Shown one piece after another: positions 49,901-52,900 of a stretch of 64,000 bases of DNA. Source of the DNA: Escherichia coli. Its GTDB lineage: Bacteria > Pseudomonadota > Gammaproteobacteria > Enterobacterales > Enterobacteriaceae. How positions within the stretch are numbered: position 1 is the stretch's first letter; each line of letters starts with the position of its first letter. The DNA lies in NCBI RefSeq assembly GCF_041248615.1, contig NZ_CP158426.1; one strand, 5' to 3'. The position numbers are program-made.

Positions 49901-52900
49901 GAAGATTGGTTATAAAAGTGAAGACGTCTTTGTACCGAAGGGCGACAAGCAGCGTCGCCTGCATAAAGCGTTGTTGCGTTACCACGATCCGGCAAACTGG
50001 CCGTTAATCCGCCAGGCGCTGGAAGCGATGGGCAAAAAGCATCTGATTGGCAGCCGTCGCGATTGCTTAGTGCCTGCGCCAACCATTGAAGAGATGCGTG
50101 AGGCTCGTCGCCAGAACCGCAATACCCGTCCGGCGTTGACTAAACATACGCCGATGGCGACCCAGCGTCAGACGCCTGCTACGGCAAAAAAAGCGTCGCC
50201 TACGCAATCTCGTCCGGTGAATGCTGGTGCGAAGAAACGCCCTAAAGCGGCGGTTGGACGTTAAAAAATATCCCCGGTAACAGAATGCTGCCGGGGATTT
50301 TTTTATCATTCTGCGTACATACGCAAGCAGCGCAGGCAATCAAAATAGTCCTGAGCATCAAGACGCGTATTGGCTCTGTTAGCGTCGGATTTGGCAGCAT
50401 AGATTTGTGGGCGTAATGCTTTCATATCCTGCTCAAGCCGGGCGATTTTGGCATTTAATGTTTGCACATTGCTCGCCAGCTGATTGACCTTTTGCTCATT
50501 GACGCAGCCACTGAGCAAGCAGGTTGCCAGAACAACAGCTCCCACGGTGAAAATCGTTTTCATATAGTGTTCCCTTTTATTTATTGTTCCGGCTAATTGT
50601 TATTTAATTCAGCTCATTGCTTTAATCTGGCGGCGGTTTTTGCCTCAATCTGCTTAAGTAGGCTGCCGCTGTTCGGGCGGATAAAATCAGCGATTTCCCA
50701 CTTACCTTCGCGCCGCTGTAAAATCAGTTCTTGCTCTTCGTTGTTGCCATTGGTCAGCGTAAAACGAACATGAATGCGGGCGGAATCGGCGGTTTTCTCC
50801 AGGACTCGAATTTCATCAACGCGGGAAAATAACGACTCTTCGCCAAAACAGATCGGATTGTCGTAAATAAATTGCCGTTCTATTTGCATATCTTCATCGG
50901 GATTGTTGGCAGTCTTGAAGGTGGTTTTATAGAAGGCATTGACCGCCTGGCGGTAAGAGTCGGAAACCACCCACGTCCACGGCCAGCTATAATCAGCAAT
51001 ATGTTCAACGAGTTCGGCAACAAAGGCTTCCGGCTGTTCTTTTTGCAACGAAGCTATAGCGGCCAGCGTTTTTTCATTCTCGCTATTAACTGCTTGTAAG
51101 ACGCTGCCATGATTGCTGACAATATCGTCAATGACCCAACGACCATTTTCCGCCACCATTTTCAGTGTCTGCGTGGTCTTTTCTTTATCGTCTTTAAAGA
51201 TACGAAAGCGCACAACGGCATCGGCATGATCGGCGTCAGGTTGGGTTATCGCTACGCTTTCTAACACCAGATCGCCAAAATCCTGACAATCACAAACCGG
51301 ATCATAATCCAGCCAGCCAATATTGCCTGGTAGTGTAAGATTGTCGTTCAGGGTAAGCGCCTGTTGAATACGCGCTGAAGTTATCGCCCGCTCTCCGATT
51401 TCACCGAAATAAGGCGTACTGGCATCTGATTTATAGTTCTGATAAATCTGCCGGACTGTTTGTTCTACGGTCTGTGAAGGAGGCTGCGCGTGTACGGTAA
51501 AACTTGCCAGGGCTGCTAAAAACAGAAGTATTATTTTCATCTGTTTTTCACCTCTCCGTTGCGTTTATCCCGGGTGTAGATGAATTGTTCCTTTAAGAGC
51601 TTCCGGCTCTGCATGATGATGTCCTTATATTTGGCATTCCTGAACAAGGAAGAGTAACAATGGGCAGGACGCGAGGGGAATAAATGATTTCTGAAAAGTC
51701 CGGTAGCGGAACATTACCGCCACCGGGAGAATTTGCACGTTAGCCGCCAAACTGTTCAGGATCGGGACCGAGACGCTTGCCCTGATCGAGTTTTGCAATT
51801 TCGCCGAGTTCGTCTTTGTCGAGACGGAAATCCCAGACATCAAAGTTTTCGACAATGCGTGAAGGTGTGACCGATTTCGGGATCACCACCAGGCCGCTAT
51901 CCAGATGCCAGCGGATAACAATCTGCGCCGGGGTTTTGCCGTATTTATCTGCCAGATCGCGAATGACTTTCTGATCGAAAACGCCTTTCCCTCCTTGCGC
52001 TAATGGGCTCCAGGATTCGGTCTGGATTTTGTGTGTCGCGTTCCAGGCATGTAGCTGGCGTTGTTGCATCAGCGGGTGAAGTTCGATCTGATTAATAACA
52101 GGCGTCACGCCAGTTTCATCAATCAGGCGTTGCAAGTGATGGATCTGGAAGTTGCACACGCCGATGCTTTTGATTAATCCCTCTTTTTGCAATTCGATCA
52201 TGCCTTTCCATGCTTCGACATAATGGTCGATAGCGGGAACGGGCCAGTGCATTAAGTAGAGGTCGATATAATCAAGCTGGAGTTTTTTCAGGCTGTCGAG
52301 CAGGGCTTCGCGGGGGCGCTTGTGGTCGTCGTTCCACAGCTTAGTGGTGATGAACAGTTCTTCTCTGTTGACTGAGGCATTTTTCAGGGCTTTGCCGACA
52401 CCTTCTTCGTTCTTATAGGCCGCGGCGGTATCAATCGAGCGATAACCCACGTCTAACGCTTTTTGAATGGCGGTGATTACTTCCTCATTACTTGCTTGCC
52501 AGACGCCCAGTCCCAACTGGGGCATGACATTGCCATCCTGTAGCTTAATAACGGTTGGATTAGCCATACGTTCCTCCTTTATATGAACTCACCGGAGCTG
52601 GCTCCGGTGAGGTGTTGTGAACTTAAGTCTGGACGAAATGCCCGAAAACGAAAGTTTGAGGCGTAAAAAGCTTAGCGGGCGGCTTCGTATATGCGGCGGC
52701 TGACATCCAGCGTAATGTCATGATTTTCGCCCAGTAGGGTCATACCGTGCTCTTCCAGTTTTTTCAACAAAGCCGGGATGGAGCTGCCGTCCAGACCGTA
52801 GTCGGAGAGGTGGGTCGGCACGCCTAATTGCTCAAAGAAATTGCGGGTTGCGGCAATCGCGGCGTCAATACGCTCATCGTCGGAACCTTCTGTGATGTTC

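What the first reader, a model, noticed from the sequence alone, without database searches (positions are those of the whole stretch)
52588..52611. Perfect 11-bp inverted repeat between yqhD and dkgA
CTCACCGGAGC-TG-GCTCCGGTGAG lies in the 104-bp spacer between co-directional yqhD and dkgA, with no adjacent U-tract. It could act as an mRNA stabilising hairpin or partial terminator, giving differential expression of the two reductases within the YqhC-controlled unit.
Basis: seen in the sequence. Interest (0 to 1): 0.2.

Follow-up and report, generated by a model that had tools for sequence, protein, structure and literature searches.

The report
Conserved RNA hairpin between yqhD and dkgA
The inverted repeat is real and is an RNA stem-loop kept by compensatory mutations across about 30 enterobacterial genera, but it is read through rather than acting as a terminator, so it is an ordinary though unannotated intercistronic mRNA structure whose exact job is untested.

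Summary
A perfect 11+11 nt inverted repeat lies at 52588-52611, inside the 104-nt spacer between yqhD and dkgA. Both genes are on the minus strand. As RNA it folds into a 10-bp stem with a tetraloop (-18.8 kcal/mol, z -5.9).

It is single-copy in E. coli, so it is not REP or ERIC. All 83 related loci examined keep yqhD-dkgA synteny, and nearly all keep a hairpin at this position. Covariation is strong: 91-95% of cells pair, 9-10 of 10 pairs show double changes, and 0 of 500 shuffles reach this.

It does not behave as a terminator:
- The 3' tail is U-poor in 72 of 79 species.
- The Term-seq tables held list no 3' end there.
- SMRT-Cappable-seq reports only a bicistronic yqhD-dkgA unit.
- YqhD and DkgA proteins are co-induced 35- and 41-fold.

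It abuts Rfam ES173 and a 33-nt block that is 92-95% conserved, against 49% at four-fold sites.

Best reading (confidence 0.42): a read-through intercistronic stem-loop acting after transcription as a decay or processing barrier. The mechanism is inferred, not shown. It is a new member of a known kind, of low to moderate interest.

The parts
52588..52611 (-). The hairpin: 10-bp GC-rich stem plus tetraloop on the yqhD-dkgA mRNA (5' arm 52611-52602, loop 52601-52598, 3' arm 52597-52588). MG1655 coordinates 3156579-3156602.
   Evidence: -18.8 kcal/mol, z -5.9. Covariation.
52622..52654 (-). Highly conserved 33-nt sequence block CTTTCGTTTT-N6-aTTTCGTCCAGACTTAAg. It lies 8-13 nt 5' of the hairpin in every locus. 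Function unknown; it is conserved as sequence, not as structure.
   Evidence: Pairwise identity is 0.95 and 0.92 for its two halves, against 0.49 at dkgA four-fold sites. It is single-copy in E. coli. No sigma-70-like promoter was found.
52606..52669 (-). Match to Rfam RF02753 'ES173 sRNA' (64 nt). It covers the spacer from 2 nt after the yqhD stop to the first 6 nt of the hairpin's 5' arm.
   Evidence: 99 bits, gathering score 90, E 8e-21. Sub-threshold hits occur in other genera. The family's own stem shows no covariation.
52612..52621 (-). C/A-rich single-stranded linker (GUUCACAACAC in E. coli) between the block and the hairpin.
   Evidence: gap of 8-13 nt; 'CACAC' is common.
52573..52579 (-). 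dkgA Shine-Dalgarno AAGGAGG, 8 nt after the hairpin and 5 nt before the ATG at 52567.
   Evidence: It is conserved in the alignment.
52672..53835 (-). yqhD (NADPH-dependent aldehyde reductase), the upstream cistron.
   Evidence: (NF011717, 841 bits).
51740..52567 (-). dkgA (aldo-keto reductase), the downstream cistron.
   Evidence: (NF008598, 573 bits).
51691..51727 (-). Canonical intrinsic terminator after dkgA (hairpin plus CUUUU). It serves as the internal positive control for what a terminator looks like in this operon.
   Evidence: The Term-seq 3' end 3157494 (window 51696) falls in its U-tract.
53888..53923 (-). yqhD-dkgA promoter (-35 TTGAGA, -10 CACAAT) and the TSS at window 53888 (MG1655 3155302).
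   Evidence: scan; SMRT-Cappable-seq unit b3011|b3012 from 3155302.

Best explanation
The inverted repeat is a cis-acting RNA stem-loop inside the bicistronic yqhD-dkgA mRNA. RNA polymerase reads through it, and it acts after transcription.

The most likely role is a thermodynamically strong barrier to decay or processing. It would stop 3'-to-5' exonucleases coming from the dkgA side. That would protect the yqhD segment and the conserved spacer RNA upstream of it, which is the stretch catalogued as ES173. It would also partly uncouple the lifetimes of the two cistrons.

What is shown: the structure is under selection as RNA-type pairing, it is transcribed within the operon mRNA, and it is not a canonical terminator or a repeat element.

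What is inferred: the barrier function itself, and the idea that the hairpin forms the 3' boundary of the ES173 fragment.
For: 1. The structure is under selection. On a structure-blind MAFFT alignment of 47 spacers, RNAalifold predicts this hairpin as the only helix in the spacer. There, 91.3% of cells pair against 75.8% in shuffles, 9 of 10 pairs carry double changes, and the covariation score is 0.539 against 0.228, with 0 of 500 shuffles reaching it. On the alignment fitted to the covariance model (CM) with 80 loci, the figures are 94.5% against 76.8%, 10 of 10 pairs and 144 compensatory cells. Slid controls pair only 34-51%.

2. Stability is maintained. Stems are 8-13 bp with median dG -17.7 kcal/mol, always 8-13 nt after the conserved block.

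3. It behaves as RNA on the sense strand. There are 33 G-U cells against 15 A-C cells. Arm sequence and CCGG-to-CCGG spacing vary between genera. By contrast, the YqhC operator palindrome in the same loci keeps its arm sequence TTTCTCCAG and varies only its centre.

4. It is transcribed and read through. SMRT-Cappable-seq lists the unit b3011|b3012 from TSS 3155302.

5. It stays attached to the upstream block. Block-hairpin adjacency is kept in every locus. ERIC-like insertions (median 11 copies per E. coli genome) separate the hairpin from the dkgA ribosome-binding site in 4 loci. In 2 Buttiauxella loci the hairpin is replaced by another stem at the same place.

6. A spacer RNA has been catalogued. 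Rfam ES173 ends at the hairpin.

7. There is a modest mRNA asymmetry. yqhD mRNA rises 26-fold and dkgA mRNA 10-fold on glycolaldehyde.
Against: No direct measurement exists. The Term-seq tables held list no stable 3' end at or just after the hairpin. Under a barrier model some 3' ends would be expected there, although yqhD is poorly expressed without aldehyde stress and the stored files may be truncated.

Rfam places the 3' end of ES173 inside the 5' arm, not after the stem.

Protein induction is equal, 35-fold for YqhD and 41-fold for DkgA, so any differential effect is small.

The sequence-specific conservation of the adjacent block is not explained by a simple barrier.

The original ES173 paper could not be read.
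Confidence: 0.42

Rival explanations
1. A 5'-UTR element of dkgA. In this reading the hairpin sits at the 5' edge of the dkgA ribosome-binding region. It would tune translation initiation (standby site, insulation of the SD), or protect the 5' end of a dkgA mRNA made by endonucleolytic cleavage in the U-rich block.
For: In loci without insertions the stem ends 18-26 nt before the ATG, which is 6-10 nt before the SD. The spacer length is tightly kept at 98-112 nt. In L069 a second hairpin copy stays next to the SD.
Against: Predicted SD accessibility is the same with the native, shuffled or deleted hairpin (0.29, 0.30 and 0.29 over 71 species). ERIC-like insertions put 97-146 nt between hairpin and ATG in 4 loci without loss of the hairpin. 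No 5' end data are available.
Confidence: 0.2
2. The 3' stem-loop of a conserved intra-operonic regulatory RNA. Block plus hairpin would together be the real ES173: a processed spacer RNA with a conserved single-stranded seed and a covarying 3' hairpin. It would act in trans, or serve as a binding platform for a specific sRNA or protein.
For: The pattern of a conserved seed followed by a covarying 3' hairpin is the one seen in sRNA alignments. The block is 92-95% identical against 49% at neutral sites. There is an Rfam ES173 hit. The block and hairpin are never separated. The Rfam stem within the block has no covariation, so the block is probably single-stranded.
Against: There is no U-tail for Hfq-type sRNAs. 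No 3' end was mapped. No target or partner has been identified. ES173 rests on a single RNA-seq survey that I could not read.
Confidence: 0.15
3. A partial (leaky) intrinsic terminator or attenuator that lowers dkgA transcription relative to yqhD.
For: There is a strong GC-rich stem. In E. coli the tail UUCAUAU has 4 U in 8 nt, and a few species have U-richer tails (7 of 79 with at least 5 U). mRNA induction is 26-fold against 10-fold.
Against: The consensus scan does not call it. The U-tract is absent in most genera although the stem is conserved. The Term-seq tables list no 3' end there, although the dkgA terminator is detected. SMRT-Cappable-seq shows no yqhD-only unit, even though at 1.3 kb it would pass the size cut. 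Protein co-induction is equal.
Confidence: 0.1
4. A promoter-proximal 5' hairpin of a dkgA-only transcript started from an internal promoter in the conserved block.
For: The block is strongly conserved DNA just upstream. Klebsiella and Raoultella carry an extra terminator-like hairpin plus T5 between yqhD and the block, which would call for a downstream promoter. A dkgA-only transcript of about 0.93 kb would be lost to the >1 kb size cut of SMRT-Cappable-seq.
Against: No sigma-70-like -35/-10 pair was found in E. coli, Enterobacter or Klebsiella spacers, and no conserved TAnnnT sits at a suitable position. YqhC binds only the yqhC/yqhD spacer in gSELEX. No TSS entry was found in the Kim et al. 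tables held.
Confidence: 0.08
5. A DNA-level palindromic operator for a dimeric protein, or a chance or neutral palindrome.
For: It is a perfect palindrome in E. coli with a fairly conserved CCGG core in both arms.
Against: Arm sequences change by paired substitutions, and the distance between the CCGG cores varies from 5 to 16 nt. This is unlike the sequence-conserved YqhC operator in the same loci. Chance is excluded by shuffles and by conservation.
Confidence: 0.04

Closest known systems
REP/BIME intercistronic stabiliser hairpins (e.g. malE-malF; established knowledge, recalled from memory)
   Same: A GC-rich stem-loop without a U-tract in an intercistronic spacer. Such elements are read through by RNA polymerase and are thought to block 3' exonucleases, favouring the upstream cistron.
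   Different: This element is single-copy, only 24 nt long and a perfect palindrome. It is inherited orthologously across genera with compensatory changes. It is not a member of a dispersed repeat family.
Intrinsic (Rho-independent) terminators and intra-operon attenuators
   Same: A stable GC-rich hairpin of terminator-like size (-18.8 kcal/mol).
   Different: There is no U-tract in 72 of 79 species and no mapped 3' end. The bicistronic transcript is the only unit reported. The operon's real terminator lies after dkgA.
Rfam RF02753 ES173 sRNA
   Same: It lies in the same spacer. The model's last 6 nt are the first 6 nt of the hairpin's 5' arm.
   Different: The hairpin is essentially outside the model. 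The family's annotated stem lies upstream and shows no covariation. The family threshold restricts it to Escherichia, whereas block plus hairpin span the Enterobacteriaceae.
Selective RNA processing and stabilisation by intergenic stem-loops (e.g. the Clostridium cellulolyticum cip-cel operon; abstract of PMC4423207 seen)
   Same: The concept matches: stem-loops in intergenic regions of an operon set the relative stability of the flanking cistrons.
   Different: No processing sites or differential half-lives have been measured for yqhD-dkgA. Protein outputs look similar.
ERIC/IRU elements
   Same: They occupy the same spacer in some species and also form hairpins. In two Buttiauxella loci a short ERIC-like stem replaces the hairpin.
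   Different: ERIC is about 125 nt long and multi-copy (median 11 per E. coli genome). The hairpin is 24 nt and single-copy.

Membership tests
Intrinsic (Rho-independent) terminator | Stable GC-rich stem-loop | tested here: met
   10 bp plus tetraloop, -18.8 kcal/mol, z -5.9.
Intrinsic (Rho-independent) terminator | U-rich tract immediately 3' of the stem | tested here: not met
   The tail is UUCAUAUA in E. coli and the consensus scan does not call it. Across 79 species the median is 2 U in 8 nt, and only 7 species have at least 5.
Intrinsic (Rho-independent) terminator | RNA 3' ends generated at the site in vivo | tested here: not met
   The Term-seq tables held list no 3' end between 3153564 and 3157494, yet they list the dkgA terminator. 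SMRT-Cappable-seq reports only b3011|b3012. Caveats: expression is low without inducer and the stored supplements may be truncated.
REP/BIME repeat | Many dispersed copies per genome | tested here: not met
   The spacer and the block each occur at 1 place per genome. The 34-nt hairpin query gives a median of 2 places. I take these to be the two strands of one palindromic locus; this is an inference, not checked. No other copy occurs in the window with up to 3 mismatches.
REP/BIME repeat | Match to the REP consensus | not tested
   No REP model was available in the tools. From memory of the consensus, nothing beyond CCGG is shared.
Rfam RF02753 (ES173) | Covariance-model score at or above the gathering threshold | tested here: met
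   99 bits against 90 for window 52606-52669 (-). This applies to the upstream spacer, not to the hairpin.
Rfam RF02753 (ES173) | The hairpin lies within the family model | tested here: not met
   The model ends at CUCACC, which is 6 nt into the 5' arm.
Conserved cis-acting RNA structure | Base pairs kept through compensatory substitutions beyond controls | tested here: met
   9-10 of 10 pairs with double changes, 0 of 500 shuffles reaching the observed value, and slid controls at 33-53% paired.
Conserved cis-acting RNA structure | Transcribed on the strand that forms the structure | tested here: met
   A bicistronic primary transcript from TSS 3155302 covers it. There is a sense-strand G-U excess, 33 against 15.
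Exonuclease-barrier / stabiliser hairpin | Upstream RNA accumulates with 3' ends at the stem; half-life depends on the stem | not testable with these tools
   This needs 3'-end mapping and half-life measurements in stem mutants. The Term-seq tables available give no support.
DNA operator palindrome | Arm sequence and spacing conserved across species | tested here: not met
   The arms covary and the spacing varies. The true operator in the same loci keeps TTTCTCCAG-N6-CTGGAGAAA.

The most novel reading that the evidence does not exclude
The 33-nt ultra-conserved block and the covarying hairpin together form one functional RNA module of about 85 nt, cut out of the yqhD-dkgA mRNA. This would be the true extent of 'ES173'. 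It would act as an intra-operonic regulatory RNA, or as the docking site for a sequence-specific sRNA or protein that sets DkgA output or links the aldehyde-stress operon to other targets. The hairpin would be its protective 3' end.
Probability: 0.18. Interest if true: 0.55.

Novelty: new member of a known kind. Interest (0 to 1): 0.27.

Why it matters
yqhD and dkgA are the main NADPH-dependent aldehyde reductases behind furfural, glyoxal and glutaraldehyde tolerance, and they are widely manipulated in metabolic engineering. The operon is usually described only by its YqhC-dependent promoter.

This work shows that its spacer holds a selected RNA stem-loop and an even more conserved sequence block. 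That points to an unstudied post-transcriptional layer. It also warns that constructs which delete or keep the spacer may not be equivalent.

The gain is incremental. Conserved intercistronic hairpins are a familiar class, and available data suggest that the effect on the YqhD:DkgA ratio is small.

Tried and rejected
**Explanations tested and rejected**
- REP or another repeat family: single-copy.
- Canonical terminator: see the membership rows.
- Sigma-70 promoter in the spacer of E. coli, Enterobacter or Klebsiella: none found.
- YqhC site in the spacer. The block's CATTTCGTCCAG resembles the operator half-site CATTTCTCCAG. However, gSELEX finds a single YqhC site elsewhere, and block variants do not track the invariant operator.
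- The Rfam ES173 stem as a real structure: no covariation.
- Insulation of the SD by the hairpin: no effect in silico.
- Small ORFs. An antisense 27-codon ORF (52583-52666, +) exists in only 7 of 72 species, and sense ORFs are not conserved.

**Searches that led nowhere**
- Several papers were not held: Raghavan 2011, my presumed source of ES173, Lee 2010 and Thomason 2015.
- Several supplements were absent or uninformative.
- The cap on papers stopped a look at the ChIP-exo study and at the Cappable-seq TSS list.
- A metagenome scan for the block gave one contig only.
- The YqhD homologue search returned only Enterobacteriaceae of at least 85% identity. Cronobacter, Klebsiella and Salmonella all keep the synteny. 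So the test 'does the hairpin follow yqhD or dkgA when they separate' could not be made.
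Full report
**Observation.** The window is E. 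coli chromosome. NCBIfam and the MG1655 annotation place dkgA at 51740-52567 and yqhD at 52672-53835, both on the minus strand. yqhC lies divergently at 53972-54928. The reported repeat CTCACCGGAGC-TG-GCTCCGGTGAG is exactly at 52588-52611, within the 104-nt spacer 52568-52671. On the mRNA strand it reads CUCACCGGAGC-CA-GCUCCGGUGAG, followed by UUCAUAUAAAGGAGGAACGU and the dkgA AUG. A 2-nt loop cannot close, so the RNA forms a 10-bp stem with a CCAG tetraloop at -18.8 kcal/mol (z -5.9; 0 of 200 shuffles fold as well). Shuffles of the window give 0.17 such perfect repeats per 64 kb against 7 observed.

**Not a repeat family.** The spacer occurs once per genome in 5412 of 5426 complete E. coli genomes. 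The conserved block upstream also occurs once. The 34-nt hairpin query gives a median of two places per genome, which I take to be the two strands of one palindromic locus (an inference). Nothing similar occurs elsewhere in the window. Most E. coli strains differ from this window by one base in the loop, CCUG in K-12.

**Conservation and covariation.** A DkgA-guided scan of one genome per species returned 80 loci from about 30 genera of Enterobacteriaceae. yqhD is always directly upstream, and the spacer is 98-112 nt in 72 of them. Cronobacter, Klebsiella and Salmonella enterica loci fetched separately show the same arrangement.
- Nearly every spacer holds a hairpin at the same position. Stems are 8-13 bp with median dG -17.7 kcal/mol, lying 8-13 nt after a conserved block and 18-26 nt before the ATG.
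- The exceptions are two Buttiauxella loci where another stem replaces it, two loci (L022, L030) where my perfect-stem search found only short stems, and a weaker 7-bp form in Klebsiella and Raoultella.
- Arm sequences differ widely, for example CAUCGCCGGAG/CUCCGGCGAUG, UACCCCGCAG/UUGCGGGGUA and CCACCAGAGG/CCUCUGGUGG.
- On a structure-blind MAFFT alignment, RNAalifold predicts this helix and no other in the spacer. There, 91.3% of cells pair against 75.8% in shuffles, 9 of 10 pairs have double changes, and 0 of 500 shuffles reach the covariation score. Slid controls pair 33-53%.
- On the alignment fitted to the covariance model (CM) with 80 loci, the figures are 94.5% against 76.8%, with 10 of 10 pairs.

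**RNA rather than DNA.** Sense-strand G-U cells outnumber A-C cells 33 to 15. The distance between the two CCGG cores varies from 5 to 16 nt. As an internal contrast, the known YqhC operator palindrome in the same loci keeps its arms (TTTCTCCAG-N6-CTGGAGAAA) and varies only its centre. That is operator behaviour. The spacer hairpin shows the opposite pattern, which is RNA-structure behaviour.

**Terminator test.**
- The consensus scan does not call the hairpin a terminator.
- Across 79 species the 8 nt after the stem hold a median of 2 U, and only 7 species have at least 5.
- In the Term-seq tables of Adams et al. that are held, no 3' end lies between 3153564 and 3157494. The entry at 3157494 falls in the U-tract of a canonical hairpin after dkgA (window 51691-51727), which serves as a positive control within the same operon.
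- SMRT-Cappable-seq lists a single unit b3011|b3012 from TSS 3155302 (window 53888). That position fits the -10 CACAAT found by the scan. A yqhD-only transcript of about 1.3 kb would pass that method's >1 kb size cut, but none is listed. A dkgA-only transcript of about 0.93 kb could be lost to the cut.
- On vanillin, YqhD and DkgA proteins rise 35- and 41-fold. On glycolaldehyde the mRNAs rise 26- and 10-fold.
- Together these results argue for read-through, with at most a small polarity effect.

**Neighbours.**
- Rfam RF02753 'ES173 sRNA' matches 52669-52606 (-) at 99 bits. It ends 6 nt into the hairpin's 5' arm and gives sub-threshold hits in other genera. Its annotated stem has no covariation support: 80.9% paired against 80.0% in shuffles.
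- The core of that region is a 33-nt block, CTTTCGTTTT-N6-TTTCGTCCAGACTTAA. Its two halves are 0.95 and 0.92 identical pairwise, whereas dkgA four-fold sites are 0.49.
- I found no sigma-70-like promoter in it.
- YqhC binds only the yqhC/yqhD spacer in gSELEX.
- The function of the block is unknown. Its provenance as an RNA-seq-detected sRNA rests on my memory of Raghavan et al. 2011, which I could not open.

**Which gene does the hairpin serve?**
- Block and hairpin are adjacent in every locus.
- In four loci an ERIC-like element separates the hairpin from the dkgA SD. This element is 125 nt long with a median of 11 copies per E. coli genome.
- In two Buttiauxella loci a short ERIC-like stem replaces the hairpin at the same place.
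- In L069 an insertion is flanked by two hairpin copies.
- This favours a unit made of block plus hairpin over a hairpin tied to the ribosome-binding site.
- Predicted SD accessibility is unchanged by shuffling or deleting the hairpin (0.29, 0.30 and 0.29).

**Mechanism.** The best-supported reading is a read-through intercistronic RNA stem-loop that works after transcription, most probably as a decay or processing barrier. It would protect the upstream yqhD/ES173 RNA from 3' exonucleases and partly uncouple the fates of the two cistrons (confidence 0.42). The selection on structure, the transcription through the site and the absence of termination are shown. The barrier function is inferred. 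The rivals are:
- a dkgA 5'-UTR element (0.20);
- the 3' module of a processed regulatory RNA (0.15);
- a leaky terminator (0.10);
- a 5' hairpin of an internal-promoter transcript (0.08);
- a DNA operator or chance palindrome (0.04).

**Comparison and verdict.** The element works like REP-type or SRPS-type intercistronic stabilisers but is not a member of REP, ERIC, the intrinsic terminators or, strictly, Rfam ES173. It is a new, unannotated member of a known kind. Interest is low to moderate (0.27). The most interesting item is the adjacent ultra-conserved block, not the hairpin.

**Limits.** There are no direct RNA-end or half-life data under inducing conditions. Stored supplements may be truncated. 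The cap on papers was reached. No genomes with separated yqhD and dkgA could be sampled.

Noticed in passing
window 52622-52654 (-): A 33-nt block CTTTCGTTTT-N6-TTTCGTCCAGACTTAA is 92-95% identical across about 30 genera, against 49% at neutral sites. It is conserved as sequence, not structure, is single-copy, and has no recognisable promoter. Its function is unknown, and it is more constrained than the hairpin itself.
   Followed up: partly
window 52606-52669 (-): The consensus stem of Rfam ES173 (RF02753) gets no covariation support in 47 enterobacterial spacers. The family boundary cuts through the 5' arm of the only covarying helix, so the family may be mis-delimited.
   Followed up: yes
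window 53950-53973 versus 52630-52641: The YqhC operator half-site CATTTCTCCAG resembles the block's CATTTCGTCCAG, with one extra base. The operator is invariant across genera while the block varies independently, and gSELEX reports one YqhC site only. The resemblance is probably coincidental, but a weak half-site is not excluded.
   Followed up: partly
L039, L044, L046, L078 spacers (about 2313-2500, 2262-2500, 2267-2500, 2276-2500); L074/L076 2371-2500: ERIC-like elements (125 nt, median 11 copies per E. coli genome) are inserted between the hairpin and the dkgA SD in four species. In two Buttiauxella loci a short ERIC-like stem sits where the hairpin should be.
   Followed up: partly
L083 3682-3724 (Klebsiella) and the L079 spacer (Raoultella terrigena): An additional long hairpin followed by TTTTT lies directly after the yqhD stop, upstream of the block. 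The usual hairpin is weakened to 7 bp (-10.9 kcal/mol). In this lineage yqhD may have its own terminator, which raises the question of how dkgA is transcribed.
   Followed up: no
L069 2232-2500 (Buttiauxella MAG): Two copies of the hairpin flank an insertion of about 165 nt of unknown nature. One copy stays next to the block and the other next to the SD.
   Followed up: no
window 52612-52621 (-): The linker between block and hairpin is C/A-rich (CACAACAC). This is the kind of sequence known as a translational enhancer and as a GcvB-type sRNA target. No pairing test was made.
   Followed up: no
window 52583-52666 (+): An antisense 27-codon ORF (MNSPELAPVRCCELKSGRNARKRKFEA) spans the hairpin and the block. 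A comparable antisense ORF is found in only 7 of 72 species, and it has no SD. It was rejected as a gene.
   Followed up: yes
window 11958-11984, 17681-17700, 19069-19102, 20823-20848, 28962-28989, 47939-47965, 54932-54957, 58378-58406, 62185-62210: Other perfect inverted repeats with arms of at least 10 nt were found. Examples are AAAATGCCGGGG..CCCGGCATTTT, which looks like a bidirectional terminator, a loop-less 20-nt palindrome GCCGATGAAATTTCATCGGC, and a 13-bp-arm repeat at 28962. None was examined.
   Followed up: no
L012 3335-3415 (-): Just after dkgA in Enterobacter cloacae a long hairpin scores 50 bits against a microRNA family (mir-188). This is certainly spurious as a microRNA. It is probably a terminator or repeat element.
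   Followed up: no
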